Shown here: piece after piece, positions 48,457-64,000 of the stretch | Numbering within the stretch: the stretch's first letter is position 1 | Layout of the letters: the number at the start of each line of letters is the position of its first letter | From: Alphaproteobacteria bacterium | GTDB lineage: Bacteria; Pseudomonadota; Alphaproteobacteria; Rhizobiales; Xanthobacteraceae | Direction of reading: 5' to 3' | DNA: 64,000 nt | Assembly (NCBI GenBank): GCA_026400395.1 | Contig: JAPLPD010000160.1 | Span: forward strand, 1,427-65,426 | Program-made: the position numbers and the translations under genes | Notes under the pieces: generated by a model | Told to the model about the DNA's origin: nothing | Databases searched by the model: none | The model's input: the letters and a program-made list of their open reading frames with translations, nothing else

Positions 48457-48471
48457 ATCGGCGAGCCCGGC

Positions 48472-49296: not shown

Positions 49297-49322
49297 CCCG
49301 TGGGCCTCCGCGGGTTCGTTCG

Positions 49323-50177: not shown

Positions 50178-50430
50178 TACCGAAATTCCATGCCCCGGAT
50201 TTTACGCAGCCGCAACCGCCAGTCAGCGATCATCGCTCAACCGCAGGCCCCCAACTGATGCCGTCATCGTCATGTGAGCGCAGTCCATGTACGTCCCCCC
50301 GGAGCGGTATTGTGCAGCCCACCATCATGCGAAAAGCCCGGCGCGTGAAGTGCGAAACGTCACACAACGCTTTTCTCTTTTATTTTCAGATGGTTACGAC
50401 GAGGATCATGGCGGGGAGCTGGCCTTTCGG

Positions 50431-52647
50431 CTATTTTGACTCCAGCGCAAACGCTCCATCCCAGTCGTCCGGCGGCGGAGTGACTTGGAAATGGCGGACC
50501 CGTTTGGAATAGATCTCGTAAAGAGTTCTGAAGCTGTGCTCGCCGCCGGCCGCGAGCCCTTCTTCGATCGCCGCCAGCGCGCCTGTCCAGTTCCGGCTGC
50601 GATAATGTGAGAGCATTCTCACGTTGAGTTCGTGCCAGCGCTGGAAGCGTTCCGAGTTGATCATGTCTTCGCGGCCGACGATGGAATAGACGACCTCCGG
50701 TTCCTTCTTGCCCTTGACTGCGATGAAGTCCAGTTCCAGCAGCGCGAATTTGTCCTTCGCAACGCTTGCCGTGCGTGAGCCGATGATGATCGGCAGCCCG
50801 TAGGATTTGCATTGGCCTTCCAGGCGGGAGGCGAGATTGACGCTGTCGCCCAGCACCGAATAGTCGAAGCGCAAATCGGAGCCCATGTTGCCGACCACGC
50901 AACGGCCGGTGTTGATGCCGACGCCGATGTTGATCGGCAGAAACAGCGAGCCGTTGACCTTCGACGCCTCCTCGCGCTCGCGATTGAGCCGGTCGACCCG
51001 TTCGAGCATGTCGAGCGCGGCTTCGCAGGCGTTGAGTTCGTGGATCGGGTCGGAGAGCGGCGCGTTCCAGAACGCCATGATGGCGTCGCCCATGTATTTA
51101 TCGATGGTGCCCTTGCGGTCGATGATGGCGTTGGTCAGCGGGGTCAGGAAGCTGTTCATCAGCGCCGTCAGGCCCTGTGGGTCGTCCTTGTAGACCTCCG
51201 AGATGGTGGTGAAGCCGCGGACATCGCTGAACATGATCGTCATGTTGCGCGCCTCGCCGCCAAGCACGAGCTTCTCCGGCGACTGCGCGAGCTGCTCGAC
51301 CAGGGCGGGCGAGAGATATTGTCCGAACGCCGAACGAATCTGGCGCCGCTGCGCCTGCTCCTTGACGAAATTGGTGAACACCAGCGTGACGTAGATCAGC
51401 AGGCTCGACAGCAGCGGAAAGGTGAAATCCAGCAGCAGCTTTAGTTCGGAGAAAAAGTACCACGAGCCGCCGACCAGTAGCGCGATCATCAGGGCGCCGA
51501 ACAGCAGCAGATAGACGGGGCCAAGGATCGGCGCGATGATGATGATGAGGGCGCCCAGCACAGCGGCCGCGCCGAGTTCGGCCGCGACCGCGTAGTTCGG
51601 CTGCGACAGCACCGATTTGCTGAGAATGCTTTCCAGAACCTGCGCTTGGATTTCGACGCCAGGCATGGTGGGATCGTTCGGCGTCGTCTTCAGATCGAGC
51701 AGGCCCGCGGCCGACGTGCCGACCAGCACCAGTCGCTGCGCTACGCGGTCGGCGGGGACGCGCCCCTCAATCAGGTCGAGCGCCGAAATGTAGCGCGCCT
51801 TGTCGTGCGGCGCGAAATGCACCCAGAGCTGGGCGTTGCGGTCGGTCGGCATCTCGAACCCGGGAAGCGCCACGCTGGTGACCCCGGCTCCGTCCATCCG
51901 GATCAGGATGGTGCTGGCCCCGGTCGCCACCCGCAACATCTCGAACGACAGCGACGGCATGATGTTGCCCTGCGCCTGCATGGCCATCGGAATACGGCGC
52001 ACGATGCCGTCGCGCTCGGTGCGGATGCTGAACAGGCCGCGGCCGGACGCGGCGTGTTCCAGGACCGGCACGTTGCGCAGCAGGCCGGGGAAGCTGAACA
52101 GAAATGCCTTCGGATCGCCGCCGCGGGCCGCCACGCCGCCGATCGGCGGCTGGCCTTCGGTCTGCGGCACCGGTGTCGGCAGTCCGGTTACGCCGAGCAC
52201 CACGCGCGACCGCTTGAGGGCATCCGCCATGATTTGGTCGTTGCTGGGAAGCGCGCGCAGCTTGTTGCGCGTTTCCTCGTCAAGGTCGCGATAGACGTCC
52301 GCCGCGAGCGCCGGAGACAGCCGGTCGGGTTCGGCAAAAATCACGTCGAAGCCGATGGCGGCGGCGCCCAGCTCGGTCAGGCGCGTGATCATTTCGGCGA
52401 TGCGGGTGCGGGGCCACGGAAACTGCCCGAGTTTGCGCAGGCTTTGCTCGTCGATGTCGACGATAACCACCGGCCGCTGCGTGGCGACGCGCGGCTGGAT
52501 GACCTGGAAAATATCGAAAGCTCGCAGGCGAAGTTCTTCAAGCGGGCCGGGATCGGAGACGCGCATGAACAAGAGGGCAAGCAGCAGCACGACGCACAAG
52601 GCGCGGGCGGATGTGAGCCACCGCTTCAGATTATTGAGCCATTTCAT
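50431..52647 (-). CDS. CHASE2-domain class III adenylate cyclase
   Basis: VDIDEQSL..GQFPWPR, three TM helices, FSDVRGFT, DKYMGDA, DYSVLGDSVNLASRLE (Lys/Asp pair of ATP-specific enzymes). Confidence 0.92.
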   Translation of the reverse strand: MKWLNNLKRWLTSARALCVVLLLALLFMRVSDPGPLEELRLRAFDIFQVIQPRVATQRPVVIVDIDEQSLRKLGQFPWPRTRIAEMITRLTELGAAAIGFDVIFAEPDRLSPALAADVYRDLDEETRNKLRALPSNDQIMADALKRSRVVLGVTGLPTPVPQTEGQPPIGGVAARGGDPKAFLFSFPGLLRNVPVLEHAASGRGLFSIRTERDGIVRRIPMAMQAQGNIMPSLSFEMLRVATGASTILIRMDGAGVTSVALPGFEMPTDRNAQLWVHFAPHDKARYISALDLIEGRVPADRVAQRLVLVGTSAAGLLDLKTTPNDPTMPGVEIQAQVLESILSKSVLSQPNYAVAAELGAAAVLGALIIIIAPILGPVYLLLFGALMIALLVGGSWYFFSELKLLLDFTFPLLSSLLIYVTLVFTNFVKEQAQRRQIRSAFGQYLSPALVEQLAQSPEKLVLGGEARNMTIMFSDVRGFTTISEVYKDDPQGLTALMNSFLTPLTNAIIDRKGTIDKYMGDAIMAFWNAPLSDPIHELNACEAALDMLERVDRLNREREEASKVNGSLFLPINIGVGINTGRCVVGNMGSDLRFDYSVLGDSVNLASRLEGQCKSYGLPIIIGSRTASVAKDKFALLELDFIAVKGKKEPEVVYSIVGREDMINSERFQRWHELNVRMLSHYRSRNWTGALAAIEEGLAAGGEHSFRTLYEIYSKRVRHFQVTPPPDDWDGAFALESK

Positions 52648-52692
52648 AATGCACCGCCTCGAACGCACGCCTGCGGGCGTGCCCGTCCCCCG

Positions 52693-54018
52693 TCACTTCT
52701 CCCGGAACGTCCGCATCAGTTGATCATGGAGCGGCTTGATAAAATAGGAAATCATCGTCCGGTCCCCGGTCTGAACGAACGCCTCGACCGGCATCCCCGG
52801 TACCATACGGAGTTCGCCGAGCTTGGCCACTTCGTCGGCCGGCATGGCGATCCGGATTGTGTAGAAGGTCTGCCCGGTGCGCTGGTCGGTGGAGGCGTCG
52901 GCGGAGATGCGGGTGACAGTTCCGTAGATTTCCGGGGTGGTGCGCTGGTTGAAGGCTGACAGGCGCAGCAGCGCTAGCTGTCCCTGCCGCACCTGGTCGA
53001 TATCCTGCGGATTCACCTTGGCCTCCACCGTCAGGTTATCGGCGTCGGGGACGATCATCATGATGGCGTCGCCGGCGGTGATGACGCCGCCGACCGTGTG
53101 CACGTTGGACTGGAACACCATGCCATCCTGCGGCGAGCGGATTTCGATGCGTTTGAGCTGGTCTTCGGCGGTGATCTTGCGCTCGACGAACTCGCCGATC
53201 TTGCCGTCGATCTCGCGGGTTTCCTTGGCCACCTCGCTGCTCAGATCGCGGTCGATCTGGATGATCTGCAACTCGGTCTCGGAAATCTTGCCGGCGACCT
53301 GAGCGGTTTGCGCGATCAACTGCGCGGCTTCGCCCTCCAGTCGCACCGCGGCGCGCTCAAGCTCGGTCAGCCGCGTCAGCGGAACGAGCTTCTGCTTCCA
53401 CAGGTCGTAGACGCCTTCCTTTTCGCGGTCGATCAGCTTGGTTTCTTTTTCCTTGGACTCGCGCTGGGCCTTGAGGCCGCGCACCTCTTCGTTGAGCTGT
53501 TCGATCCGCTGCCGGAGTTGTGCCTTCTGGCCGGTGCGCGCCGAGCTGCGCAACTCGAACAACTTACGCTCGCCGTCGACGATCGGCGCGATGTCGGGAT
53601 CGCTGGCGCGGGCCAGAAGGTCGGCTGGAAACTTGACCAGGCCGAGTCCGTCGCGCTCGCTCTCAAGGCGCGCCTTTCGCGCGTTTAATTCATCCAGACC
53701 CTTGGTGACGATGGCAAGGTTGGCGCGGGTGACCGTATCGTCGAGGCGCACCACGATGTCGCCCTGCTTGACGCGGTCGCCGTCGCGCACGCGAAGCTCG
53801 CCGACGATGCCGCCGGTCGGGTGCTGGACCTTCTTCACGTTACTGTCGACCACGACCGAGCCTTGGGCGATCAGCGCCCCGGACAGCGTCATGGTGCCGG
53901 CCCAGCCGCCGACGCCGCCGGCCAATACGATGACGATCGCGAGCCCCGCCAGGGTGTGCCGGCTGATCGATTGCCGGGTGTTCCAAGGGCGCGCCGGGGT
54001 GGGGAGTTGGGGGTTCAT
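52693..54018 (-). CDS. HlyD/PrtE-family type I secretion adaptor
   Basis: KKVQHPTGG, VRDGDRV, IRSPQDG, GMPVEAFVQTG.RT.ISY. Confidence 0.93.
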   Translation of the reverse strand: MNPQLPTPARPWNTRQSISRHTLAGLAIVIVLAGGVGGWAGTMTLSGALIAQGSVVVDSNVKKVQHPTGGIVGELRVRDGDRVKQGDIVVRLDDTVTRANLAIVTKGLDELNARKARLESERDGLGLVKFPADLLARASDPDIAPIVDGERKLFELRSSARTGQKAQLRQRIEQLNEEVRGLKAQRESKEKETKLIDREKEGVYDLWKQKLVPLTRLTELERAAVRLEGEAAQLIAQTAQVAGKISETELQIIQIDRDLSSEVAKETREIDGKIGEFVERKITAEDQLKRIEIRSPQDGMVFQSNVHTVGGVITAGDAIMMIVPDADNLTVEAKVNPQDIDQVRQGQLALLRLSAFNQRTTPEIYGTVTRISADASTDQRTGQTFYTIRIAMPADEVAKLGELRMVPGMPVEAFVQTGDRTMISYFIKPLHDQLMRTFREK

Positions 54019-54028
54019 GACGGGCCCC

Positions 54029-55795
54029 TCATGACTTGACCGCTCCCGCTTCCGGAACCAACTTGAGCGAGCGCGATGCCGCCGAGGCGCCTTCGCGCTG
54101 CTGTAGCACGCGCGCGAGTACCTCGTCCTTCGCGCCGAACGCCTGGGCGCGTCCGCCGCTCATCATCAGCAGCATATCGACGCAAGCGATCGCACTCGGC
54201 CGGTGTGCGACCACGACCGCTATGCCGCCGCGGGCACGGACGCTCATGATGGCGCGGCTCAGCGCCTCATCGCCCTCCGAGTCCAGGTTTGAATTGGGCT
54301 CATCCAGCACGACCAGAAACGGTTCGCCGTAAAGCGCGCGCGCGAGCGCCACGCGTTGCGCCTGTCCGGCGGACAGCGCGGTGCCGCTTTCGCCGACCTG
54401 CGTTTCGTAGCCATCGGGCAGGCCGACGATCAGGTCATGCACGCCCGCCGCGGTGGCCGCCGCGATCACCGCCTTGGGATCGAGCGGCTCGGAAAAGCGG
54501 CCGATGTTTTGCGCCACCGTTCCGGCCAGCAGTTCGACGTCCTGCGGCAGATAGCCGATGTGCCTGCCGAGCGAATCCGGCGACCACTGGTCGAGCGCGG
54601 CGCCATCGAGACGGATTCGGCCGCGCGCCGGTTTCCATACGCCGACCAGCATCCGCGCCAGCGAACTCTTGCCGGAGCCGCTTGGGCCGATGATGCCGAG
54701 CCCGTTGCCGGCCTGCAGCGTAATGCTGACGTCCTGCACGACAGCCTTTTCGCTGCCGGGCGGCATGACCGCGGCGCTCTCGACCACCACGTTGCGCGAC
54801 GGCGGTTGCAACGGCATCGGCGGGGGTAGCGATGGCAACAGGCCGAGGAGGTCGGTGAGGCGCCTCCAGCCCTGGCGCGCGCCGACGAAGCCGCGCCAGT
54901 TGGCGATCGCCAGATCAACCGGCGCCAGCGCCCGCGCGCTCAGGATCGAGCCGGCGATGATGATGCCCGCCGTCGCCTGCTGATAGATCACGAGATAGGC
55001 GCCGACCGCGAGCACGCCCGACTGCAGCATCATGCGAAGCACCTTGGCCGCCGATCCGAAGCCGCCGGCGACATCGCTCGCCCGCTGCTGGCTCGCCAAA
55101 TACTGGGTGTTGGCTGTGCCCCATTTCGCAGCAATGCGGCTGGTCATCCCCATCGCCGTCAGCACCTCGGCGTTGCGGCGGCTGGTTTCGGCGAGCGAAT
55201 TGCGGGCCATCGCGAACTGGGTCGCGGCCCGTGTCGGCTCCCGGGTCATGGTTTCGGTCAGCATGGTGATGATGCCGAGAACGATGGCTCCAAACAGCGC
55301 GGCCAGTCCGATGTAGGGATGGAACAAAAAGCAGATGATGAGATAGATCGGCAGCCAGGGCAGATCGAACATCGCGTTTGGGCCGGCGCCGGACAGGAAG
55401 GACCGAACGCTGTCGAGATCCCGCATCGGCTGCAGTCCGTCATTGCGATTGCCGAGCTTCAACGGCAGCCGCACGATCGTTTCATAGACCCGCCCGCTCA
55501 GCGCTTCATCGAGTCGCATGCCGATGCGCACGAGGATGCGACCGCGGATGAAATCGAGCAGGCCCTGCGCCGCATAGAGACCGGTCGCCAGAATCACCAG
55601 CCCGATCAGCGTGGGAATGCTGCGGCTCGGCAGCACGCGGTCGTAGACTTCGAGCATGAAGATGGCGCCGGTGAGCATCAGGATGTTGCTCATCCCGCTC
55701 ATCAGGCCGATCGAAATGAAGGCCCCGCGGCAAGCGGCGAGCGCGTTCGCGAGCTCGGAGCGTTGCTGGTTGGGCCGCCGAACGGGTTGCCGCAT
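54029..55795 (-). CDS. PrtD/AprD-family type I secretion ABC ATPase/permease
   Basis: YDRVLPSRS, GPSGSGKS, GYLPQD, LSAGQAQR, LDEPNSNLD; no C39 domain. Confidence 0.93.
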   Translation of the reverse strand: MRQPVRRPNQQRSELANALAACRGAFISIGLMSGMSNILMLTGAIFMLEVYDRVLPSRSIPTLIGLVILATGLYAAQGLLDFIRGRILVRIGMRLDEALSGRVYETIVRLPLKLGNRNDGLQPMRDLDSVRSFLSGAGPNAMFDLPWLPIYLIICFLFHPYIGLAALFGAIVLGIITMLTETMTREPTRAATQFAMARNSLAETSRRNAEVLTAMGMTSRIAAKWGTANTQYLASQQRASDVAGGFGSAAKVLRMMLQSGVLAVGAYLVIYQQATAGIIIAGSILSARALAPVDLAIANWRGFVGARQGWRRLTDLLGLLPSLPPPMPLQPPSRNVVVESAAVMPPGSEKAVVQDVSITLQAGNGLGIIGPSGSGKSSLARMLVGVWKPARGRIRLDGAALDQWSPDSLGRHIGYLPQDVELLAGTVAQNIGRFSEPLDPKAVIAAATAAGVHDLIVGLPDGYETQVGESGTALSAGQAQRVALARALYGEPFLVVLDEPNSNLDSEGDEALSRAIMSVRARGGIAVVVAHRPSAIACVDMLLMMSGGRAQAFGAKDEVLARVLQQREGASAASRSLKLVPEAGAVKS

Positions 55796-56238
55796 CGACG
55801 ATGATCCTTCGCGACGACATCAACGATTTGTCGCGCCGCCATCGAAACCATATTACCAGCAGTTGCAACTCTTAACGTGAATTAACCATAAGAATATAAG
55901 GCATTGGAAACAAGCCTTTTTTTAACGGCACGGATATTCCCCCACTGTTTGTTCCCGCCGACGAAACCAAAGCCGGGTTCGGTCGTTAATGAGTGTGACG
56001 GCAAGTTGGAAGGATTGGGGCTTCAAATGGATAGGTTCGACCAGTTTTTTAGCGCCGAGGCTTTGCGTTACGATCGGAATGCGGCCGACTGGCTAAGCTG
56101 TCACGCCGCAAGGCCAAGGAGCTCCGGCGCCCGGGCGTCGTCATCGCTCCGACGTGGGGTGATAGTCTGGCAGTCATTCTTGGATCTCTTTTTCAGCAGC
56201 AGCCAGCCCAGCCCATTCCGCTCAGGCACCGCCGTTAG

Positions 56239-57693
56239 CTAGCGTCCGTCCGGGGTTCGGACGCCGACCCATGCGTCTCGGATCTGGTGGTAATGCACCT
56301 GCGGATCGTAGGTCGGCACGCTGAGGCCGAGCACCTGCGGCGACAGTCGTCCGGTGGCGGCAAGCAATCCGTAGGAATTCACCAGCCGGTCGCGCTGCGC
56401 CACCACGAGCGCGATCCGCGCGTTGACCAGTTCCTGCTGGGCGTTGAGCACGTCGAGGGTGGTGCGCTGGCCGAGGCGGGCCTCCTCGCGCACGCCGTTC
56501 AGCGCGGCTTCGGCCGCCTTCACCTGGTTGCGGGTCGACTCGATGGAGCGCTTGGCGGCTTCGAGCTGCGCCCACGATTGCTGAACGCCGAGCCGCGCCT
56601 GATCGCGCGCGACGCTGAGTTCGAGTTGCTTCTGGCCTTGAATTTCCTTGGCCTGACGGATCGCGGCGTATTCGGCGCCGCCCTGATAGAGCGGCGCCGA
56701 ATATTGCACGGTGCCGGCGGCGGTGAAGGACTGCTGCTGGTTCAGCGCGGTCTCGTAGTTCTTCTGCACCGAGCCCTGCAGCGACAGCGTCGGCTGCAGC
56801 GCGCCCTCGGCGACCTTGACCTGATGCAGGGCGATATCGACGTTGTGCTGGGCGGCGGAGACGGCGGCGTTCTGCGCGATGCCGGCGGCCATCGCGGCGG
56901 CCAGCGTGTTCGGCGTGAAGCGGTCGACCGGCGCGGCCGGCGAAAGCTTGCCCGGATCGAGGCCGATCACCTGCCGGTAGGCGGCGCGGGCGCTGGCGTA
57001 GTTGGCCACCGCCGTGGACAACTGGGTGCGGCCGACGTTGAGGCGGGCCTCCGACTGCGAGACGTCGGTGGCGGTGACGTTGCCGCTCTCCAGCCGCGCC
57101 CGGGTCTGCCGCAACTGCTCGGTCAGCACGTCGATGTTCGAGCGCTGCAATTCGAGGATGCCGCCCTCGCGCAACAGGTTCATGTAGGCGGTGGCGGCGT
57201 TGAGCAGCACGGTCGCTTCCAGCCCGCGCAAGGTCTCGCGGGCGGCCAGCACCTGGCTTTCGGCGACGCGGGTGCGGTTGACCTGGCTTTCGGCGACGCG
57301 GGTGCGGTTGGCGGTCTGGAAGCCGTTGAGCAGGGTCTGCGTCACCGTCGCGCCGACGCCGCGCGGGTTGTTGACGCCGCTCTGGGTGAAGAACACCGGC
57401 GGCGCGTTGAGCGGCGTGGTCGAGCCGACCTCGCGAATCGTGGTCGATAGCGACTGCATGCCGATGTTGGCGGTGGCCACCGCGCGCGGCCGATAGCCGG
57501 CGAGGGCGGTCGGCACGCCTTCGTCGGTGGCGCGCACAAACGCCCGCTGCGCATTCAATTGCGGATTGTTGACGTAGGCGTAGCCGAGGGCCGATTCCAG
57601 CGTGTCGGCCGCCGCCGGCCCGGACAGCAGACAACACAGCGCAGCAACGGCCGTGCGCCTGTCCGTCCACTTACCCACGCGCTCGGATTTCAT
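56239..57693 (-). CDS. TolC-family outer-membrane channel (with a 10-aa tandem duplication)
   Basis: AY.NNPQL.AQR, G..T.TDV.Q...R, G.RTTLDVLNAQQEL. Confidence 0.9.
   Translation of the reverse strand: MKSERVGKWTDRRTAVAALCCLLSGPAAADTLESALGYAYVNNPQLNAQRAFVRATDEGVPTALAGYRPRAVATANIGMQSLSTTIREVGSTTPLNAPPVFFTQSGVNNPRGVGATVTQTLLNGFQTANRTRVAESQVNRTRVAESQVLAARETLRGLEATVLLNAATAYMNLLREGGILELQRSNIDVLTEQLRQTRARLESGNVTATDVSQSEARLNVGRTQLSTAVANYASARAAYRQVIGLDPGKLSPAAPVDRFTPNTLAAAMAAGIAQNAAVSAAQHNVDIALHQVKVAEGALQPTLSLQGSVQKNYETALNQQQSFTAAGTVQYSAPLYQGGAEYAAIRQAKEIQGQKQLELSVARDQARLGVQQSWAQLEAAKRSIESTRNQVKAAEAALNGVREEARLGQRTTLDVLNAQQELVNARIALVVAQRDRLVNSYGLLAATGRLSPQVLGLSVPTYDPQVHYHQIRDAWVGVRTPDGR
57251..57310. 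repeat. Perfect 30-bp tandem duplication inside the TolC gene
   Basis: ACCTGGCTTTCGGCGACGCGGGTGCGGTTG x2, encoding NRTRVAESQV x2. Confidence 0.95.
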
Positions 57694-57875
57694 CGACCTC
57701 TCGCAGCCGCACTCAACAACCGCCACCATCCCCTTGAGTCAGAGCTGGCAGACCCCCTTCGACGTTCTGCCTCGAAGGAACGACATTGCCGAATCTGAAC
57801 TATCGAGGGATCTCGCCACGCCAATACCGATGCTCAGCGGATCCCAAAACTTTACTTGGCCGCGGCGAGCGAAAG

Positions 57876-59291
57876 TTAGCGCGGACCGTCCGGCGGCCGT
57901 GGCGGCGCGCGCTCTGGCGCTGGCGCCGGTCCCGCAAAAGCAGGCCCCGCCGGGGGTGCACCCGGCGGGCGCGGCGGCGGCTCGCCTGCGGCGGCGCCCG
58001 GCGGCTGCGGCTCGGGGGCCGATCCCGAGCCCACCGTCTTGGAAATCAAATCCTGCAACTCGGTCCAGGTCCAAGAGCGGGAAACGCCGGCTGCTGCTGT
58101 ATTGTTTGCCGACGCGCCGGGCGGGGCGTCGTGGGCGGCCTGCGGGCCATTGGTCGGCGTGCGCGGCACCGCCGTCGGCGAGGGGCGTTCGGATGGTCCG
58201 GGCAGATTGCTGGCGGGGGTCCGCTCCAGCATCGGCAGGCTGGCGCCGGCGGGCCGCTGCCGTGCCGCCTCGCTGTTGTCGGGCACCGTGGTGCCGGCCG
58301 GCCCCGCCGCGGCGGGCGCCGGATTGGGCTGCAACGGCGTATCGACGTTGCCCAGGATGACCGGCAGGCCATCCTTGCCGCTGCCGATGATGACGATCTT
58401 GGCGTTCGGCGACTGCGCGAGTTGCAAGGTCGCTTCGATGCCGCGCCAGCGCACGTAGGAATCGGAAATGCCCTGCGCCACCGTCTGCTGGAAGTCGCGG
58501 ATGCCGTTTGCCTCGATTTGCTTGCGTTCGGATTCCTTCTTCTCGCGTTCGACGCGGAAGCCGTACTCCTGCACGAAATAGTACTGCTCGATCTTGCGGT
58601 TGATCGCCGCGTTCACCGCCGCGGGCAATTCCAGCCCGAGCACCAGCGTGTCGTAGATGATCAGCAACTCCTGCAGCGAAATCTTGTAATGTTCGCCGTA
58701 CTCGCTTTCGAGTTCGTTCCGCTGCATCGTGCTCTGGCCCAGCATGGCCTCGGTGTGGGTGCGGATCTTCTTCTGGATTTCCTGGCGCTTGGTCGAATAG
58801 ATCTCCTCGGCGGTGTATTCGGCGAAAATTTCCCGCGCGCGGTTGCCGATCTCGGGGCTGAGCATTCGCTTGATGTAGTCCGGTCCGATGGTCTGGTGCA
58901 GCTGCGGCACCGCGTCGTGCTTCAGCCGGAACCGGATGTCGATCGTCGCGGTCAGGTTCACGCCGTCCTTGGAGATGGCGTTGTAGGTGTCATCGTGGGT
59001 CTGCAGGCGCAGGTCGTACAGGAACAGCTTGTCCCACGGCAGCAGCACGCGCATGCCTTCGTCTTTCAACATGCGCGGATCGAGCTGGGTGCCGCCGCGA
59101 AACCGCTTCCAGAGGATCCCGACATGGCCGGTCGGGACGGTGACGATCACGTTCGGAGCGATCAGGAAGCTCACCAGCGTGGCGACCATCAGATAGATGA
59201 TGATGACCGGCAGGCTGTGCTCGACGAACCGCCACCACCGGTAACGCTTCGGCGGCGGGTTCTCATCCAGCGATTCAGGATGCGGTTTCAT
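57876..59291 (-). CDS. SPFH/prohibitin-family membrane protein with a Pro/Ala-rich tail
   Basis: N-terminal TM; VPTGHVGILW, EG....PW, SKDG, EEIYS..R..I, coiled coil ERKQIEA.GI; start overlaps the exporter stop (TGATG). Confidence 0.85.
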   Translation of the reverse strand: MKPHPESLDENPPPKRYRWWRFVEHSLPVIIIYLMVATLVSFLIAPNVIVTVPTGHVGILWKRFRGGTQLDPRMLKDEGMRVLLPWDKLFLYDLRLQTHDDTYNAISKDGVNLTATIDIRFRLKHDAVPQLHQTIGPDYIKRMLSPEIGNRAREIFAEYTAEEIYSTKRQEIQKKIRTHTEAMLGQSTMQRNELESEYGEHYKISLQELLIIYDTLVLGLELPAAVNAAINRKIEQYYFVQEYGFRVEREKKESERKQIEANGIRDFQQTVAQGISDSYVRWRGIEATLQLAQSPNAKIVIIGSGKDGLPVILGNVDTPLQPNPAPAAAGPAGTTVPDNSEAARQRPAGASLPMLERTPASNLPGPSERPSPTAVPRTPTNGPQAAHDAPPGASANNTAAAGVSRSWTWTELQDLISKTVGSGSAPEPQPPGAAAGEPPPRPPGAPPAGPAFAGPAPAPERAPPRPPDGPR

Positions 59292-60931
59292 CAGCCGGTC
59301 TCCACCGAACTTAACTCAGTGAAACGCCCCTCGTCCATGCGCAGCCGGCGGATCGGAATGTCCATCTCGTCGATGTAACGATCGTCGTGCGAGATGGCCA
59401 CCACGGTCACGCCCGCGCGATACAGCGCCGGCAGGAACTCGAAGTAGAACTTGCGGCGGAATTCCGGGTCCTGGTCGGCGGCCCATTCGTCCAGCATCAG
59501 CACCGGGCGTTTTTCAAGTTGCGCCACGATCAGCGCTAGCCGGCGGCGCTGGCCGCTCGACAGGTCGGTGGTGCGAAACTCGCCGTGCGTCAGGCGGGTC
59601 TTTTCCTTCAGCTTGTATTCCGTCAGCATCGCTTCGAGCTCGGCCGGGTCCGGATCGTCGATTCCGTAAAGCCGTTGGAACAGGTGGAAGTCGGGAAAGA
59701 TCGCCGTGATCAGGCTGCGGTACTGCTCGAACCTCTCGCCCTCGACCGGCGTGCCATCGAGCAGTAGTTCGCCAGCGGAAGGACGGTAAAAGCCGGCGAG
59801 GATCTTCATGAACGTCGATTTGCCGGAGCCGTTGCCGCCGGTCAGCATGACCATGTCGCCGGAATTCAGCGTGAAGTTGAACGGGCCGACACGGAACACG
59901 GTATCGGCCGACTTGCCCGGATAGTGGAATTCGACGTCCCGCACCTCGATCTTGCTGAACTTCTTTTGCGGCTCGATCGACTCTTCCGAGAGGCTGGTGA
60001 TGCCGGCCAGCTTGACTTCGAGTTGTGCGAGACGGTCGGCGGCGGCGTTGGCGGCGGCGATAATCGGGATCGACTGCACCAGGCCCGAGCATGCGCCGAC
60101 GATGAACACGAGCGCGGTCACCGCCTTGGTGATCGAGCCCGCCTGGATCGCCGAGGAGAACAGCGGCACGACGAACGCCACGGAGCCGAGCAGGATGTAC
60201 AGCGACGTCTGCAGCAGCACCATGCGGCGATAGGTTTCACTCTGGGCCCGAATCTTGATGTTGGCGGCGGTGCGCGAAACTTCGACGACGTGGTCATAGA
60301 GGGCGTCGCTGCGTGCGCGGTTGAGGCGCACCTCCTTGAAGCCGTCGAGCACGTCGCTCAAACGGTCGTACAGGCGGTTTTCCCACTGACCGGCTTCCCG
60401 CATCTCTGCCTGATGCTGCTTGGTCTTGGAGTGGAAGATGGCCGCGCCGGTGCCGACGATGACCACACTCAGCACGAACGCCGTGAACGAAAGGTAAGCC
60501 ACATAAGCTGTCACCAGCGTGATCAGCAGCGCGCCTTGCACAGCGAACGCCAGCATGTTGCTGGCCTGCGTCAGGATCGCGGTATCGCCCGTGATGGCGG
60601 AGACGATCTCGGCGCGGCCGATTGTCTCAAGCGGCAGCAATTCGGCGCGCCGCACGTAGTCCATCAGCCGCACCCGCAGCTTATGAATGATGGCGCCTAT
60701 CTCGGCGGTGGTGGTGATCAGGATGAAGTGCTGCGCTTGCACGAACAGCAGCAGCGCGACGACGAAAAATCCGGCCGCCCACAGGCTGATCTCGCCCTTG
60801 TCGGCGGCGCCCGCGCCGGCGTTGATCGCGCCGATCAGTGCCGTGGTGCTGACCCCGCCCATGGCGGATACGAACACCAGCCGGCCAATCGAGCTGACCA
60901 TTTCGCGGCGAACAAGCTGGAGAAAGGACAT
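59291..60931 (-). CDS. Cyclic peptide export ABC transporter (SyrD/PvdE/YojI family)
   Basis: TMD plus NBD; GGNGSGKST, LSSGQRRRLAL, family hallmark LDEWAADQDPEFRRKFY. Confidence 0.92.
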   Translation of the reverse strand: MSFLQLVRREMVSSIGRLVFVSAMGGVSTTALIGAINAGAGAADKGEISLWAAGFFVVALLLFVQAQHFILITTTAEIGAIIHKLRVRLMDYVRRAELLPLETIGRAEIVSAITGDTAILTQASNMLAFAVQGALLITLVTAYVAYLSFTAFVLSVVIVGTGAAIFHSKTKQHQAEMREAGQWENRLYDRLSDVLDGFKEVRLNRARSDALYDHVVEVSRTAANIKIRAQSETYRRMVLLQTSLYILLGSVAFVVPLFSSAIQAGSITKAVTALVFIVGACSGLVQSIPIIAAANAAADRLAQLEVKLAGITSLSEESIEPQKKFSKIEVRDVEFHYPGKSADTVFRVGPFNFTLNSGDMVMLTGGNGSGKSTFMKILAGFYRPSAGELLLDGTPVEGERFEQYRSLITAIFPDFHLFQRLYGIDDPDPAELEAMLTEYKLKEKTRLTHGEFRTTDLSSGQRRRLALIVAQLEKRPVLMLDEWAADQDPEFRRKFYFEFLPALYRAGVTVVAISHDDRYIDEMDIPIRRLRMDEGRFTELSSVETG

Positions 60932-61008
60932 AACGCTACGCCGCCCGTTCGATTTCTAAGAGGCGCCGATCCTGGAGAACGCTGAGCACGGCAGCCCGCA
61001 ACGGCATC

Positions 61009-61245
61009 CTAGCTGCTCCGTGCGCGGCGCAGCAATTCAGTTTGCCGCGCCAGCTCGGCGCGGCGGGCCATCTCGGCCCGGCGCGAGGGGCCGGTGATCA
61101 GCAGCATCAGCAACCCGAGCACCGGGGTGATAGCGAGCGACAACAGAAAAGTGCCGGTGAAGCCCATCCGCCGCTGGCTACCGCAGAGCCCGACGAGGAT
61201 CGCGAACACAACATAGGCCGCCAGGACAGCAAGCGGTAACACCAT
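61009..61245 (-). CDS. Small two-TM hypothetical protein
   Basis: TM-GSQRRMGFTGTFLLS-TM with a basic tail; co-oriented with the exporter. Confidence 0.6.
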   Translation of the reverse strand: MVLPLAVLAAYVVFAILVGLCGSQRRMGFTGTFLLSLAITPVLGLLMLLITGPSRRAEMARRAELARQTELLRRARSS

Positions 61246-61344
61246 GACGCAACGTCTCCCTCGACACAGCCGGCCCGACGTTCGAGCCGGCGTTCCCGTG
61301 ACACGGGCAAGCGCCTGACGATCAGGTGCCCGTTGCCCGCTGGC

Positions 61345-61896
61345 TCAGTTCGGCCCGGGCGCCGGGGTGGTCGGAGCATCAGACGGCGTTCCGCGCCACT
61401 TCGCCTGCTGCGCCTTGAACTTCGCCTGCTGCACCTTGATGAATTCGCGATAGTCCGGCGGATCGAAATCCAGAAGCGTGCCGCCCGAGGCGAAATGCTT
61501 CATGAAAACCTTGCCGATCACGTAGGTGGCTCCAGCGGAGTACACCGGCATGGTCAGCGCGCCGATTGCCGATCCAATCCCTGGAATGCCCTTGATCAGG
61601 CTGCCGAAGGTCATCGCCGTCGTCGTCGCGGTGCTCGCCGGAATGAGCGAGCCTGCGAGGCCCGCGATCACCGACTTGCCGCGGTTGTCGTTGAACGGCA
61701 CCCCGTAGATTTCCGAAAGCCGCCGCAGCATCTGGATCTGTACGCCGCCGACGGCGACCACGTCGATCAGTGGCACCGGAATAAGGCCGGCCGCGCCCGA
61801 CCAGAGTGAAAACCGGTCGACCAGCTGGGACGCGGCTTCTTCGCGCTCCGATTCGGTCATCGGTGTGGTGGCGGCAGTAAAGGATTCGGTTGTCAT
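61345..61896 (-). CDS. DUF697 (YcjF-like) family protein
   Basis: GAAGLIP.P..D......Q..ML..L..IYG.PF, K.IPGIGS..G, ATYVIGKVF; imperfect 21-bp tandem repeat near the 3' end (QQAK x2). Confidence 0.75.
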   Translation of the reverse strand: MTTESFTAATTPMTESEREEAASQLVDRFSLWSGAAGLIPVPLIDVVAVGGVQIQMLRRLSEIYGVPFNDNRGKSVIAGLAGSLIPASTATTTAMTFGSLIKGIPGIGSAIGALTMPVYSAGATYVIGKVFMKHFASGGTLLDFDPPDYREFIKVQQAKFKAQQAKWRGTPSDAPTTPAPGPN

Positions 61897-62265
61897 GATT
61901 CGGATTCCCCTCAGGTCGCCAGTCGCCGCTCCGCCGGGGTCGATCGCACGATCGAAGGTGCGAAAGTCCGCGCCAGCCCTAGAGTCATAACAGATCGTGT
62001 CAGCGGGTGCCAAGCCCTTGTGCGGTTGTGCGTAACGCTTCCGGGACACCGGGCGGACCGCCCGGTTTGATTGTGACGGAATCACCGCGCGGACACACGG
62101 TGGCCGGCGCGGCAAAGAGCGGTCAAAACCGTCGCGGCGCGCTATGATCCGCCGGCACGTGCCATGGGCGGGGGGGGGTATCGTGCGTCGTGTTCTCGTT
62201 TTGCCACATCAGCCTCCGGAGGCGACGACCCCATCGGCGCAAAATTTCAACAAGGAATTGCAGGA

Positions 62266-62697
62266 ATGACGAAATGCATTTCGATGGCCGGCCTGGCGCT
62301 GATCTGCGGCACGGGCGTGTTGCTTGCCCAGGAGCCGGCCCCGAAGTCGACCACGGCCGGCGTGTTCACCGACGAACAGGCCAAGCGAGGCGCCGCCGCT
62401 TACAGCGCCAACTGCGCCGCCTGCCACGGGGCGGAGCTTCGCAGTTCCGATCGGGAAATCCCTCATCTGACCGAGAAATCGTTCAAATTCGGCTGGATCG
62501 GCAAAACCATCGCGGAGAGGTTTGAGTTCATTCGCGAAACCATGCCGCCTAAGGTGGAGAAGAAGCTTCCCGATCAAGTCTACCTGGACATCGTGACGTA
62601 TATTCTGCGGTTCAATAAAATCCCGTCGGGCGATCGGCCGCTGAAGGCGGATGTCGAAATCCTGAAGCAGATTTTGATCGAGGCGCCGCCGGACTAG
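62266..62697 (+). CDS. Periplasmic mono-heme cytochrome c
   Basis: Signal peptide; GVFTDEQA.RG, NCAACHG, axial Met in TMPP. Confidence 0.88.
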   Translation: MTKCISMAGLALICGTGVLLAQEPAPKSTTAGVFTDEQAKRGAAAYSANCAACHGAELRSSDREIPHLTEKSFKFGWIGKTIAERFEFIRETMPPKVEKKLPDQVYLDIVTYILRFNKIPSGDRPLKADVEILKQILIEAPPD

Positions 62698-62885
62698 AAC
62701 GCGGGCTCGTTGATACGCGGCATAGCCACGGCGCGCCCATTCGTGATCGGTGAGCTAGCAGCGCGTGATTCAAGCACTCCGTTCGCTGCGGATGATTCGC
62801 ACCTCAACTCGGGCGGCCGCTTTGGTGAAAGTGCGGGCATCGCTCGACACGGGTTAACGAGAGCCACTATGAGTTCACGCCCGCG

Positions 62886-63539
62886 ATGAACGCAACACAT
62901 TCGCCCTTTGCGTCCCTCGCGCGCGCCGTCGATGCCGTGTCCATCCCGGGCATCGTTGTCGAGCACCGGCTGATCGCCGATGGAGACGAGCGGGCCCTGC
63001 TGCCGGAGGAGATGCCGGCGTTCGCGGCGAGCGTGACGAAGGTGCGGCGCGCCAGCGGCGCGGCGCGCATCGTCGCGCGTCAGTTGTTGGCGCGCTTCGG
63101 GCAGCCGCCCCAGGCGATCCCGCGAGGCACGGCTGGGATGCCGCTTTGGCCGACCGGTATCGTCGGTTCGATGGCGCACGACGACACGGTCGCGGTCGCG
63201 GCCATGGCGGCGCGGCGGGATTTTCTCAGCGTTGGCGTCGATGTGGAGCCGGCTGAGCCACTGGAGCCGGGCCTGCTCGATATCGTCGCCACCGCGAACG
63301 AGCGGCAGTGGGCGAAGGACGACCCGCTGGCGGGACGTCTGCTGTTTGCGATCAAGGAGGCGATCTACAAGGCGGTCTATCCGCTCGACCGCATCTTCCT
63401 GGATCACCATGACGTCGAGGTGAACCTGACCGATGGGACCGCCGTGGTCCGGCAGGGGAGGGTGGTCCGGTTCCGCCATTGCGCTGCAACGCACATGGTG
63501 GTCCTGGCCTTCATTCCGGTCGCCGAGGTTCCCCCTTGA
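62886..63539 (+). CDS. 4'-phosphopantetheinyl transferase (EntD/Sfp type)
   Basis: G.PLWP.GIVGSMAH, VGVDVE, LFAIKEAIYKA. Confidence 0.9.
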   Translation: MNATHSPFASLARAVDAVSIPGIVVEHRLIADGDERALLPEEMPAFAASVTKVRRASGAARIVARQLLARFGQPPQAIPRGTAGMPLWPTGIVGSMAHDDTVAVAAMAARRDFLSVGVDVEPAEPLEPGLLDIVATANERQWAKDDPLAGRLLFAIKEAIYKAVYPLDRIFLDHHDVEVNLTDGTAVVRQGRVVRFRHCAATHMVVLAFIPVAEVPP

Positions 63540-63827
63540 GTTTTCCCAATAGGCTGAAACGGCAAAAATATGTGGTAACTCAATCGGTTGGCCAAAATTC
63601 AGACAAATTCTGCATGAACAGTGCAACGCGTGTTATTTAATTGCGTAAACGGCCAATTGTTGTTTTTAGTCATAGGACTAGCGGGATGGTAAACGACCCT
63701 TTCTGCCGCTTTGGCCGGGGCTCCGGCTGAGGTAGTTTAAGGGCGCCGGTGAGGGAATTAAGGTGTGGGCCCCTCGCACCGTGGCTTTCGGTGAGCAGGG
63801 ATCGTTTCGTCAGTGTCTGATCCGAGT

Positions 63828-64000
63828 ATGGGTTCCGGGGAGTTGGAGGTCGGTCGGCCGCGCGCGCCGGCCGGCGAAGCGCGTGCGTTGTCGAGCCCGC
63901 AACTCGGCATCTGGTTCGCACAAAAACTCGACCCGGCGAGCCCCGCCTACAACATCGGCGAATACTTCGAGATCGGCGGCTCGGTCGTGCTGCCGCTGTT
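63828..64000 (+). CDS. Non-ribosomal peptide synthetase, N-terminal condensation domain (3'-truncated by window)
   Basis: Manual translation from ATG 63828: ...LSSPQLGIWFAQKLDPASPAYNIGEYFEI..., a C1-motif pattern; directly follows the PPTase; not in the ORF track. Confidence 0.8.
   Translation, partial: MGSGELEVGRPRAPAGEARALSSPQLGIWFAQKLDPASPAYNIGEYFEIGGSVVLPL

What the first reader, a model, noticed from the sequence alone, without database searches (positions are those of the whole stretch)
56239..64000. NRPS-linked export module: DUF697, small membrane protein, SyrD/PvdE exporter, SPFH/prohibitin and TolC, divergent from cyt c, PPTase and NRPS
Seen: five co-oriented minus-strand genes, with the exporter stop and the SPFH start overlapping (TGATG), sit back-to-back with a cytochrome c, a PPTase and an NRPS that begins with a C domain. 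Known: SyrD/PvdE export non-ribosomal cyclic peptides, and SPFH proteins form membrane-scaffolding oligomers. No periplasmic adaptor gene lies between this exporter and TolC; the SPFH gene occupies that slot. Inference: SPFH, DUF697 and the small protein may form a dedicated scaffold or adaptor for peptide export or self-protection. I know of no characterised NRPS export system with this layout.
Basis: partly seen in the sequence, partly recalled or inferred. Interest (0 to 1): 0.8.

Follow-up and report, generated by a model that had tools for sequence, protein, structure and literature searches.

The report
Prohibitin-like protein coupled to lipopeptide exporter
A peptide-export pump gene is fused in expression to a bacterial prohibitin-like membrane scaffold gene (plus two small membrane proteins) and this set travels with a lipopeptide synthetase in many soil and freshwater bacteria, while the TolC gene next door belongs to a separate, ordinary secretion system.

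Summary
They do not form one five-gene module. TolC (56239-57729) scores as a type I secretion TolC. It sits beside a PrtD-type ABC (54029-55795) and a HlyD adaptor (52693-54018) that the finding left out, and it is variably present or absent in relatives. The cytochrome c is lineage-specific.

The real unit is DUF697 / small 2-TM protein / TIGR01194 (SyrD/PvdE/YojI-type) ABC / prohibitin-type SPFH (57876-61896). In 45 related loci (SPFH core 63-95% identical to the window's) the ABC abuts SPFH. Stop and start overlap by 1 or 4 nt in 41 of them. In 24 loci DUF697 and the small gene precede the ABC in the same order. Wherever flanks suffice, a PPTase and/or an NRPS lies next to the cassette, despite inversions. 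The NRPS starts with a starter-type C domain, so a lipopeptide is likely.

Distant gammaproteobacterial relatives again pair SPFH with DUF697. In 6 of 8 loci these lie near an NRPS, PPTase, thioesterase or TIGR01194 ABC.

'Solo' SPFH copies carry a 104-bp relic of the ABC 3' end.

The 'adaptor to TolC' idea is not supported. A scaffold or self-protection role remains plausible but untested. I found no published description.

The parts
57876..59291 (-). Prohibitin-type SPFH protein (471 aa). It has one N-terminal TM helix, an SPFH domain, a long coiled-coil helix and a roughly 150-aa Pro/Ala-rich disordered tail. The SPFH domain is predicted to face the periplasm.
   Evidence: Pfam Band_7, 70.5 bits. 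The closest solved relatives are prohibitin 1/2, by sequence and by fold. The TM segment is 27-45, with 4 K/R before it and 0 after. The start codon overlaps the ABC stop.
59291..60931 (-). Half-size ABC exporter of the cyclic-peptide exporter family (SyrD/PvdE/YojI type), with 6 predicted TM segments and one nucleotide-binding domain.
   Evidence: TIGR01194, 327 bits against a cutoff of 286; PRK10522 (YojI), 341 bits, below its equivalog cutoff. Pfam ABC_tran. Six hydrophobic segments.
61009..61245 (-). Conserved small membrane protein (78 aa) with two TM helices, a conserved loop GLCGxQRRxGFxGTF and a basic C-terminal tail. It matches no known family.
   Evidence: No Pfam or NCBIfam hit. It is conserved at 50-90% identity in the same position in 24 loci.
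61345..61896 (-). Stand-alone DUF697 membrane protein (183 aa) and first gene of the cassette. It carries a 21-bp tandem repeat near its 3' end.
   Evidence: PF05128, 53 bits against a cutoff of 27.7. Gene callers on sister contigs give 183 aa. It has 2035 cluster representatives at E<=1e-10, mostly proteins of 160-280 aa.
62886..63539 (+). Sfp/Npt-type 4'-phosphopantetheinyl transferase, part of the conserved cluster.
   Evidence: 4PPT_N plus ACPS. It is found beside the cassette, in varying positions and orientations, in many loci.
63828..64000 (+). Start of a multimodular NRPS (the window ends inside its first C domain). On sister contigs it reads C-A-T-C-A-T-C-A and beyond. The first C domain is of starter (lipoinitiation) type.
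   Evidence: The first 480 aa best match the RzmA starter C domain 7c1h (349 bits), against CDA-C1 (204 bits) and EntF (182 bits). 7C1H is identified in PMC7804268.
56239..57729 (-). TolC-family outer-membrane channel. It is NOT part of the cassette and belongs with the type I secretion genes downstream. It contains a perfect 30-bp tandem duplication.
   Evidence: TIGR01844, 285 bits. It is absent, truncated or relocated in L008, L009, L011-L014, L022, L024 and the more distant loci.
52693..55795 (-). PrtD-type type I secretion ABC (54029-55795) and HlyD-type periplasmic adaptor (52693-54018). These are the partners of TolC. They lie outside the finding's coordinates.
   Evidence: TIGR01842, 735 bits against 510. 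TIGR01843, 388 bits against 209.
62266..62697 (+). Small periplasmic mono-haem cytochrome c. It is a lineage-specific neighbour and not part of the conserved cluster.
   Evidence: Cytochrome_CBB3, 39 bits. It has no counterpart in L007-L015 or L022-L101.

Best explanation
The region holds two separate units.

(1) TolC, the PrtD-type ABC and the HlyD adaptor form an ordinary type I secretion system.

(2) DUF697, the small 2-TM protein, the TIGR01194 ABC and the prohibitin-type SPFH form one operon. This operon is the conserved membrane arm of a lipopeptide NRPS cluster (starter-C NRPS plus Sfp-type PPTase).

Proposed mechanism:
- The homodimeric ABC moves the N-acylated peptide from the inner leaflet of the cytoplasmic membrane to the periplasmic side, as PvdE is thought to do for acylated ferribactin.
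- SPFH is made in fixed ratio with the ABC through stop/start overlap.
- SPFH is anchored N-in by one helix and assembles a periplasm-facing prohibitin/HflKC-like ring or cage around or beside the exporter.
- This fences off a membrane patch where the amphipathic product emerges.
- DUF697 and the small protein are further membrane components of that patch.

Shown: gene identities, the overlap, conservation of order and of NRPS/PPTase linkage, independence from TolC, and recurrence in a second bacterial class.

Inferred: SPFH topology, oligomeric cage, physical contact with the ABC, nature of the product, and what the patch is for.
For: - Family assignments.
- TGATG overlap.
- The ABC abuts SPFH in 45 loci (35 non-redundant at 97%; SPFH core 63-95% identical to the window's). 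The overlap is 1 or 4 nt in 41 of 45, and the gap is 2-13 nt in the rest.
- The order DUF697-small-ABC-SPFH is identical in 24 loci. An NRPS and/or PPTase lies beside the cassette in every locus with enough flank. Their side and orientation differ: the NRPS is upstream in the window and L007, but downstream of SPFH in L011-L013.
- Nothing downstream of SPFH is conserved.
- The first C domain matches the RzmA starter C.
- SPFH is closest to prohibitin by sequence and by fold. It has one N-terminal TM helix with the positive charges on the N-terminal side.
- All 8 gammaproteobacterial relatives keep DUF697 within 10 kb of SPFH, and 6 of 8 have NRPS-type genes nearby. Two of them carry a TIGR01194-type ABC: L017 (301 bits; 30.6% identity to the window's over 540 aa) and L107 (29% identity over 565 aa).
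- Solo SPFH copies keep a 104-bp relic of the ABC 3' end with one shared breakpoint. The coupled form is therefore ancestral to them.
- Short metatranscriptome contigs hit SPFH, ABC and DUF697 but not the flanking genes.
- Experimental precedent: proximity labelling placed an SPFH protein next to the NRPS-cluster exporter Tba (PMC11960670).
Against: - There is no direct evidence of any protein-protein contact.
- SPFH topology rests on the positive-inside rule only.
- At least 17 loci have SPFH up to 96.7% identical in the core with no ABC, DUF697 or NRPS nearby. SPFH can therefore persist, and presumably work, without the exporter next to it.
- Two loci (L031, L033) have ABC-SPFH without DUF697 or the small gene.
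- In Gammaproteobacteria SPFH is coupled to a LivJ-like lipoprotein, not to the ABC.
- All alphaproteobacterial loci may belong to a few related families, so part of the synteny reflects common descent.
- The metatranscriptome signal is three short contigs and could come from DNA carry-over.
- No terminator separates SPFH from TolC in this window, so read-through into tolC here cannot be excluded.
Confidence: 0.55

Rival explanations
1. Self-protection or membrane-stress module. SPFH, DUF697 and the small protein do not assist export. They stabilise or repair the producer's inner membrane against its own membrane-active lipopeptide, in the way Psp-type systems do. They are co-expressed with the exporter only so that they appear at the same time.
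For: The product is probably an N-acylated, amphipathic peptide. From my own knowledge, E. coli YcjF is a DUF697-family protein. YcjF and YcjX are discussed within the Psp response system (PMC3041696, listed; I read only the listing). Also from my own knowledge and not checked here, B. subtilis SPFH protein YdjI links PspA to the membrane. Solo SPFH copies survive without the ABC. The cassette sits at the edge of the cluster, as resistance genes often do.
Against: The 1-4 nt stop/start overlap with the ABC is kept across 45 loci. That points to fixed stoichiometry rather than mere co-timing. No PspA, PspF or other stress-system genes were seen. The predicted periplasmic SPFH domain would not guard the cytoplasmic leaflet.
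Confidence: 0.25
2. SPFH replaces the periplasmic adaptor and bridges the SyrD/PvdE-type exporter to TolC, giving a new kind of tripartite pump.
For: In this window tolC follows SPFH on the same strand, about 150-180 bp away and with no predicted terminator. The SPFH domain is predicted to be periplasmic and carries a roughly 150-aa Pro/Ala-rich tail that could span the periplasm.
Against: TolC, the PrtD-type ABC and the HlyD adaptor all pass type I secretion family cutoffs and lie together. TolC is missing (L009, L022, L024), only partly matched (L007), reduced to a 24-aa match (L008), on the far side of the PPTase in the opposite orientation (L011, L012), or not adjacent at all (L013-L015, L032, L036, L041, L073, L088, L090). 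SPFH has a prohibitin fold, not the fold of a membrane fusion protein. The gammaproteobacterial homologues have short tails.
Confidence: 0.05
3. Neighbourhood without shared function. SPFH is a general housekeeping prohibitin, for example for membrane-protein quality control with FtsH as proposed for SPFH4. It merely happens to lie after the exporter in one lineage.
For: Hinderhofer et al. proposed a quality-control role for bacterial prohibitins (PMC2636767). Seventeen loci have a close SPFH in unrelated contexts such as rpoD, solute-binding proteins and TauD.
Against: The overlap is conserved across the 45 coupled loci, whose SPFH core is 63-95% identical to the window's. Linkage to the NRPS or PPTase survives rearrangements. 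At least 9 of the 17 solo copies carry an ABC relic and so derive from the coupled form. The SPFH-DUF697-NRPS-type gene association recurs independently in Gammaproteobacteria.
Confidence: 0.1

Closest known systems
PvdE / SyrD / YojI cyclic-peptide ABC exporters (TIGR01194). PvdE acts in pyoverdine biosynthesis together with the periplasmic Ntn hydrolase PvdQ.
   Same: The ABC here passes the TIGR01194 cutoff. It is a half-transporter encoded beside an NRPS whose product is probably N-acylated. This matches PvdE, which is thought to move acylated ferribactin into the periplasm without an adaptor or TolC (PMC6206403). In the gammaproteobacterial relatives the TIGR01194 ABC is directly followed by a C45-family autoproteolytic acyltransferase/hydrolase (overlapping it by 4 nt in L017), which echoes the PvdE-PvdQ logic.
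   Different: No described pvd or syr locus, to my knowledge, has an SPFH, DUF697 or small 2-TM gene coupled to the exporter. Searches of open-access full text for SPFH together with NRPS/ABC terms and with 'biosynthetic gene cluster' turned up none. No TonB receptor or other siderophore marker was seen here. No hydrolase was seen in the alphaproteobacterial cluster.
HflK/C-FtsH and mitochondrial prohibitin-m-AAA protease complexes (SPFH cages around a membrane client)
   Same: The architecture is the same: an N-terminal anchor, an SPFH domain and a coiled coil. The best sequence and fold matches are prohibitin, erlin and HflK/C. The predicted orientation is away from the cytoplasm. The gene is coupled to a candidate client.
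   Different: The candidate client is an ABC exporter, not an AAA protease. There is a single SPFH gene rather than a heteromeric pair. The protein has an extra roughly 22-aa insert and a long Pro/Ala tail. Oligomerisation has not been tested.
Tba (balhimycin cluster ABC exporter) and a paraslipin SPFH protein in Amycolatopsis
   Same: Proximity labelling placed an SPFH protein next to an NRPS-cluster exporter. The authors proposed a membrane microdomain that anchors biosynthesis (PMC11960670).
   Different: That organism is an actinomycete, the SPFH belongs to a different subfamily, and the passage read does not place that SPFH gene in the balhimycin cluster or couple it to the exporter. Here the link is written into the operon.
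Tripartite ABC efflux pumps and type I secretion systems (MacAB-TolC, PrtDEF, HlyBD-TolC)
   Same: The flanking genes at 52693-57729 form a canonical TolC / PrtD-type ABC / HlyD-type adaptor set.
   Different: The cassette exporter has no membrane fusion protein of its own, and its linkage to TolC is not conserved.
YcjF and DUF697 proteins. From my own knowledge, YcjF is the E. coli DUF697 member and DUF697 also occurs fused to GTPases.
   Same: The protein passes the Pfam DUF697 cutoff. In locus L045 a second DUF697-like gene follows a ParA-like P-loop gene. From my own knowledge, that recalls the ycjX-ycjF gene pair.
   Different: Here DUF697 is a short stand-alone protein with no NTPase partner in the cassette. 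No function is known for any member.

Membership tests
TIGR01194 cyclic peptide export ABC transporter (SyrD/PvdE/YojI) | Score above the curated family cutoff | tested here: met
   327 bits against a cutoff of 286.2. The YojI equivalog model gives 341 bits against 604, so the protein is not a YojI equivalog.
TIGR01194 cyclic peptide export ABC transporter (SyrD/PvdE/YojI) | Half-transporter with about 6 TM helices followed by one nucleotide-binding domain | tested here: met
   Six hydrophobic segments lie between residues 18 and 285. ABC_tran covers residues 351-484.
TIGR01194 cyclic peptide export ABC transporter (SyrD/PvdE/YojI) | Exports a non-ribosomal or modified peptide | not testable with these tools
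   Only genomic linkage to an NRPS and a PPTase is shown.
SPFH superfamily, prokaryotic prohibitin subgroup (SPFH4 of Hinderhofer et al. 2009) | Band_7/SPFH domain above the Pfam gathering score | tested here: met
   70.5 bits against 23.6.
SPFH superfamily, prokaryotic prohibitin subgroup (SPFH4 of Hinderhofer et al. 2009) | Closest to prohibitins among SPFH families; N-terminal anchor plus SPFH domain plus coiled coil; no NfeD partner | tested here: met
   The top PDB sequence hits are prohibitin 1/2. The top fold hits are the human PHB complex, then erlin and HflK/C. The model shows helix 16-44, an alpha/beta domain at 48-221 and a helix at 224-272. No cassette protein matched an NfeD family.
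SPFH superfamily, prokaryotic prohibitin subgroup (SPFH4 of Hinderhofer et al. 2009) | Forms a large ring or cage oligomer in the membrane | not testable with these tools
   Only a monomer prediction was available.
Tripartite ABC-adaptor-TolC efflux pump that includes the cassette exporter | A membrane fusion (HlyD/MacA-type) adaptor encoded with the exporter | tested here: not met
   No cassette protein hits an adaptor family. The only adaptor (52693-54018) is TIGR01843 and sits with the PrtD-type ABC.
Tripartite ABC-adaptor-TolC efflux pump that includes the cassette exporter | Conserved linkage of the exporter to an outer-membrane channel gene | tested here: not met
   TolC is absent, truncated or relocated in most related loci.
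Type I secretion system (TolC / PrtD-type ABC / HlyD-type adaptor) for the flanking genes | All three components above their curated cutoffs and adjacent | tested here: met
   TIGR01844, 285 against 225. TIGR01842, 735 against 510. TIGR01843, 388 against 209. No substrate was identified.
DUF697 (PF05128) | Domain above the Pfam gathering score | tested here: met
   53.2 bits against 27.7. There is no solved relative.
Lipoinitiating NRPS (starter C domain) | The assembly line begins with a C domain that groups with known starter C domains | tested here: met
   The first domain is a C domain. The best PDB match is the RzmA starter C (349 bits), then CDA-C1 (204 bits), which from my own knowledge is also a starter C domain. 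Elongation-type C domains score 105 bits or less. This rests on similarity ranking, not on a curated subtype model.
Lipoinitiating NRPS (starter C domain) | An acyl donor is loaded and an N-acyl peptide is produced | not testable with these tools
   The product is unknown and the full cluster was not recovered.
Phage-shock-protein (Psp) type membrane stress system | Presence of a PspA/IM30 family protein or a PspF-type regulator | tested here: not met
   None was found among the genes scanned between 43968 and 64000.
Known anti-phage defence systems (PADLOC) | A specific match of any cassette protein | tested here: not met
   Only generic P-loop hits for the ABC; nothing for SPFH, the small protein or DUF697.

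The most novel reading that the evidence does not exclude
Bacterial prohibitin-type SPFH proteins and stand-alone DUF697 proteins form an old, conserved membrane platform for lipid-initiated non-ribosomal peptide pathways in Proteobacteria. In the alphaproteobacterial form, the periplasm-facing SPFH cage encloses a PvdE-type ABC exporter. That would be the first non-protease client and the first function for a bacterial prohibitin. The platform would confine or hand on the acylated peptide as it leaves the membrane.
Probability: 0.3. Interest if true: 0.8.

Novelty: new variant of a known kind. Interest (0 to 1): 0.6.

Why it matters
In 2009 Hinderhofer et al. noted that no bacterial prohibitin (SPFH4) had been investigated (PMC2636767). 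I know of no partner or function reported since. The role of DUF697 is also unknown.

This locus offers a concrete candidate client: an ABC exporter that is translationally coupled to SPFH, within a defined pathway (a lipopeptide NRPS). The question 'what does a bacterial prohibitin do?' therefore becomes testable with a few knockouts and pull-downs.

For natural-product work, it flags a recurrent accessory cassette. The cassette may be needed for export, yield or host tolerance when such clusters are expressed heterologously.

It also gives genomic backing to the idea that NRPS exporters sit in SPFH-organised membrane patches. So far that idea rests on one proximity-labelling study.

Tried and rejected
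- **DUF697 structure.** The model has pLDDT 39.5 and is unusable. DUF697 has no solved relative.
- **Promoters and terminators.** The scan found counts at or below the shuffle expectation and nothing convincing between SPFH and tolC.
- **RNA families and tRNAs.** Only one tRNA-Leu was found, far away.
- **Irr/ICE iron box.** Searched as a test of a siderophore reading. There was no site near the cluster.
- **Defence-system models.** No specific hits.
- **Conserved upstream region of DUF697.** Only a shared ribosome-binding region and a GGYGAC-like stretch were seen; not followed further.
- **RNA evidence.** One freshwater metatranscriptome gave three short contigs on SPFH, ABC and DUF697. This is suggestive only.
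- **Whole NRPS cluster.** I tried to recover it through NRPS homologues. The long-read MAG copy is broken by frameshifts (L106). The best single-module homologue (L105, C-A-T-TE) lies in a different cluster with no cassette. The end of the cluster and its product remain unknown.
- **'Housekeeping SPFH' reading.** It looked possible when 17 exporter-free loci appeared. It was weakened when at least 9 of them, and 16 more loci with short flanks, turned out to carry the same 104-bp ABC relic.
- **Literature.** The searches found no description of an SPFH or DUF697 gene inside an NRPS cluster.

Full report
**What is in the window**

ORF listing, codon-position GC and profile searches give the gene order below, from low to high coordinates.

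| Coordinates | Strand | Gene | Evidence |
|---|---|---|---|
| 50431-52668 | - | CHASE2 adenylate/guanylate cyclase | |
| 52693-54018 | - | HlyD-type adaptor | TIGR01843, 388 bits vs cutoff 209 |
| 54029-55795 | - | PrtD-type type I secretion ABC | TIGR01842, 735 bits vs 510 |
| 56239-57729 | - | TolC | TIGR01844, 285 bits vs 225 |
| 57876-59291 | - | SPFH/Band_7 protein | Band_7, 70.5 bits |
| 59291-60931 | - | ABC half-transporter | TIGR01194, 327 bits vs 286 |
| 61009-61245 | - | 78-aa two-TM protein | no family hit |
| 61345-61896 | - | DUF697 | PF05128, 53 bits |
| 62266-62697 | + | cytochrome c | Cytochrome_CBB3, 39 bits |
| 62886-63539 | + | Sfp/Npt-type PPTase | 4PPT_N + ACPS |
| 63828 to window end | + | NRPS, starting with a C domain | |

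- The ABC stop and the SPFH start share one base (GGCTGATGAAA).
- Longer contigs of the same organism show the NRPS continuing as C-A-T-C-A-T-C-A for more than 2900 aa.
However, the finding's frame cut off the two genes that explain TolC.

**TolC is not part of the module**

- TolC, the PrtD-type ABC and the HlyD-type adaptor are adjacent, and each passes the curated type I secretion cutoff.
- I fetched ten genome loci and 80 metagenome loci through the SPFH protein and mapped the window's proteins onto them.
- In the closest relatives TolC varies:
  - present in L010 and L026;
  - only partly matched in L007 (241 aa aligned);
  - reduced to a 24-aa match in L008;
  - absent, with the type I ABC following SPFH directly, in L009, L022 and L024;
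  - together with the type I genes on the far side of the PPTase, in the opposite orientation, in L011 and L012.
- In more distant relatives neither TolC nor the type I genes are adjacent (L013-L015, L032, L036, L041, L073, L088, L090).
- The cytochrome c has no counterpart outside near-identical contigs.
- Downstream of SPFH nothing is conserved. Neighbours include a giant cadherin-like protein, a molybdenum dehydrogenase, a metallo-beta-lactamase-fold protein and FlhA.

**The conserved unit**

- In 45 loci (35 non-redundant at 97%; SPFH core 63-95% identical to the window's) a TIGR01194-type ABC ends where SPFH begins.
- The junction overlaps by 1 nt (TGATG) or 4 nt (ATGA) in 41 loci. It leaves 2-13 nt in the other four.
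- In the 24 loci with enough upstream DNA the order DUF697, small protein, ABC, SPFH is identical.
- Two loci (L031, L033) have ABC-SPFH with the PPTase directly upstream and no DUF697 or small gene. ABC-SPFH is therefore the tightest pair.
- The small protein is clearly a real gene. It has two hydrophobic helices, an invariant-looking GLCGxQRRxGFxGTF loop and a TGPS/TAPS motif across 23 distinct sequences.
- Every locus with DNA beyond DUF697 or beyond SPFH shows an NRPS and/or the PPTase, but the arrangement differs. The NRPS diverges from DUF697 in most loci. It lies downstream of SPFH in L011-L013. The PPTase is found upstream or downstream, on either strand.
- Linkage that survives such rearrangements is better evidence of shared function than static synteny.

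**What the NRPS makes**

- The first 480 residues match the RzmA starter condensation domain (7c1h) at 349 bits. CDA-C1 scores 204 bits and, from my own knowledge, is also a lipoinitiating C domain. EntF scores 182 bits, and ordinary elongation C domains score 105 bits or less.
- PMC7804268 identifies 7C1H as part of the lipoinitiation study.
- A multimodular, N-acylated peptide is therefore the likely product.
- I could not recover the end of the cluster.

**The SPFH protein**

- By sequence its nearest solved relatives are prohibitin 1/2.
- An AlphaFold2 model built on 35 sequences (mean pLDDT 67; 80-92 over most of the SPFH core) shows:
  - a TM helix at 16-44;
  - an alpha/beta SPFH domain;
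  - a long helix at 224-272 and a further helix at 277-293;
  - a disordered Pro/Ala-rich tail of about 150 residues containing one short helix.
- Foldseek ranks the human prohibitin complex first, then erlin, HflK/C and stomatin.
- Four K/R precede the TM segment and none follow within 15 residues. This predicts an N-in topology with a periplasmic SPFH domain, as in HflK/C.
- Hinderhofer et al. (PMC2636767) call this group SPFH4. They note that no bacterial member had been studied and no operon partner was known.

**A second, distant occurrence**

- The genome scan also returned a Thiolinea locus with SPFH (35% identical) and DUF697 (38% identical) about 2 kb apart.
- Homologues of that SPFH were traced to eight non-redundant gammaproteobacterial loci.
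- All eight keep one or two DUF697 genes within 10 kb, usually divergent from SPFH and followed by a PotD-like binding protein.
- Seven of the eight (all but L108, whose contig ends early), plus the truncated L021, also show the fixed string SPFH, LivJ-like lipoprotein, SBP_bac_3 protein and a 560-660-aa Amt-like protein; the short L016 contig ends before the Amt-like gene, and a small 65-76-aa gene precedes SPFH in L016, L017, L019 and L107.
- Six of the eight have NRPS-type genes within 10 kb:

| Locus | NRPS-type genes nearby |
|---|---|
| L017 | TIGR01194 ABC (301 bits; 30.6% identical to the window's over 540 aa), overlapping a C45-family autoproteolytic acyltransferase/hydrolase |
| L019 | PPTase |
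| L102 | FAAL-T-C NRPS start and a thioesterase |
| L104 | Thioesterase, a starter-C NRPS (C-A-T-C-A-T-C) and a C45-like protein |
| L107 | Thioesterase, PPTase, TIGR01194-type ABC (29% identical over 565 aa; not scanned against NCBIfam) and a C45-like protein |
| L108 | Thioesterase |

- The pairing of this SPFH subgroup with DUF697, and its proximity to acyl-initiated carrier-protein pathways and a PvdE-type ABC, is therefore not peculiar to one alphaproteobacterial lineage.
- The ABC-hydrolase pair recalls PvdE and PvdQ: export of an acylated precursor, then periplasmic deacylation (PMC6206403).

**Exporter-free SPFH copies**

- Seventeen metagenome loci with at least 1.8 kb upstream of SPFH have no ABC, DUF697 or NRPS. 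Their contexts are unrelated.
- Their SPFH cores are up to 96.7% identical to coupled ones, and the two kinds interleave in a neighbour-joining tree.
- DNA alignment shows that homology between solo and coupled loci extends about 104 bp upstream of the SPFH start, into what is the 3' end of the ABC gene in coupled loci, and then stops.
- In L081 the relic is frameshifted. In L096 its stop codon is lost.
- The same 104-bp relic with the same breakpoint is detectable in 9 of the 17 solo loci and in 16 of 27 loci with short flanks.
- These solo genes therefore descend from a coupled copy through one truncation event. The relic may now serve as their 5' region.
- This makes coupling the ancestral state. 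It also shows that SPFH can be kept without an adjacent exporter.

**Expression and origin**

- The sequence occurs mainly in freshwater, lake and river metagenomes, with some soil.
- Relatives are labelled Xanthobacteraceae, Rhodoplanes or uncultured Alphaproteobacteria.
- One metatranscriptome yielded three short contigs, 99-100% identical, on SPFH, ABC and DUF697 and none on the flanks. This is weak but consistent evidence.

**Interpretation**

- The best-supported reading is a four-gene operon that forms the membrane arm of a lipopeptide NRPS cluster.
- Within it, a PvdE-type exporter is co-produced with a periplasm-facing prohibitin-like scaffold.
- By analogy with HflK/C-FtsH and prohibitin-m-AAA, SPFH may ring the exporter and delimit a membrane patch.
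- The balhimycin exporter Tba has been found next to an SPFH protein by proximity labelling (PMC11960670).
- A pure self-protection role is the main rival.
- The TolC-adaptor idea is essentially excluded.
- No paper found here describes such a cassette.

**Verdict**

- This is a new variant of a known kind of system, of moderate to high interest. It gives bacterial prohibitins and DUF697 a testable partner and pathway.

Noticed in passing
window 57251-57310: tolC contains a perfect 30-bp tandem duplication (2.0 copies, 100% match). It duplicates ten residues (NRTRVAESQV) in the protein. In L007 only 241 residues of TolC aligned, so this gene looks evolutionarily unstable in the lineage.
   Followed up: partly
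window 61398-61439: A 21-bp tandem repeat (2 copies, 95% match) lies near the 3' end of the DUF697 gene and duplicates a QQAKFKA-like heptad in the C-terminal tail.
   Followed up: no
L096 9472-9574, L081 4808-4909, and 23 further loci: Exporter-free SPFH genes are preceded by a roughly 104-bp relic of the ABC gene's 3' end, always with the same breakpoint. In some the relic has frameshifts or a lost stop codon. Its conservation suggests it now acts as promoter or leader for the solo gene.
   Followed up: yes
L017 5184-16428; also L019, L102, L103, L104, L107: Gammaproteobacteria (Thiothrix, Thiofilum, Thiolinea and others) share an undescribed string. One arm is a PotD-like binding protein and one or two DUF697 genes. 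The divergent arm is a small protein, SPFH, a 620-aa LivJ-like lipoprotein, an SBP_bac_3 protein and a 560-660-aa Amt-like protein with an N-terminal extension. A TIGR01194-type ABC and a C45 acyltransferase/hydrolase follow in L017 and L107. Its function is unknown.
   Followed up: partly
L045 1693-4842: In one cassette locus three genes are inserted between the NRPS and the cassette: a ParA-like P-loop gene, a second DUF697-like gene (38% identical) and an SbmA/BacA-type ABC. From my own knowledge, the NTPase-DUF697 pairing recalls the ycjX-ycjF gene pair.
   Followed up: no
L032 8632-18207 and L014 16714-18972: A giant protein of more than 3000 aa with cadherin-like and Big_9 repeats lies convergent to SPFH. 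It looks like a typical type I secretion adhesin. The window lineage instead has the type I secretion genes at this position.
   Followed up: no
window 47503-52668: A CHASE2-domain nucleotide cyclase (50431-52668) follows the type I secretion genes and stays with them in relatives (L007, L009, L011, L012). A cNMP-binding protein (48472-49296) lies nearby. This may be a cyclic-nucleotide signalling pair linked to the secretion system.
   Followed up: no
window 57876-58330 (SPFH residues about 320-471): The alphaproteobacterial SPFH proteins carry a Pro/Ala-rich, low-complexity tail of about 150 aa with one short predicted helix (residues 409-419, around WTWTELQDLISK). The gammaproteobacterial relatives have shorter Ser/Thr/Lys-rich tails. 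A GC-rich hairpin plus T-run inside this coding stretch (57946-57969) is probably a chance terminator-like match.
   Followed up: partly
L105 7861-13972: One of the closest homologues of the first NRPS module (63% identity) is a stand-alone C-A-T-TE enzyme. It sits with MbtH, a PPTase and a YqcI/YcgG protein, with no cassette nearby. The starter module therefore also exists in a simpler cluster that probably makes an acyl-amino acid.
   Followed up: partly
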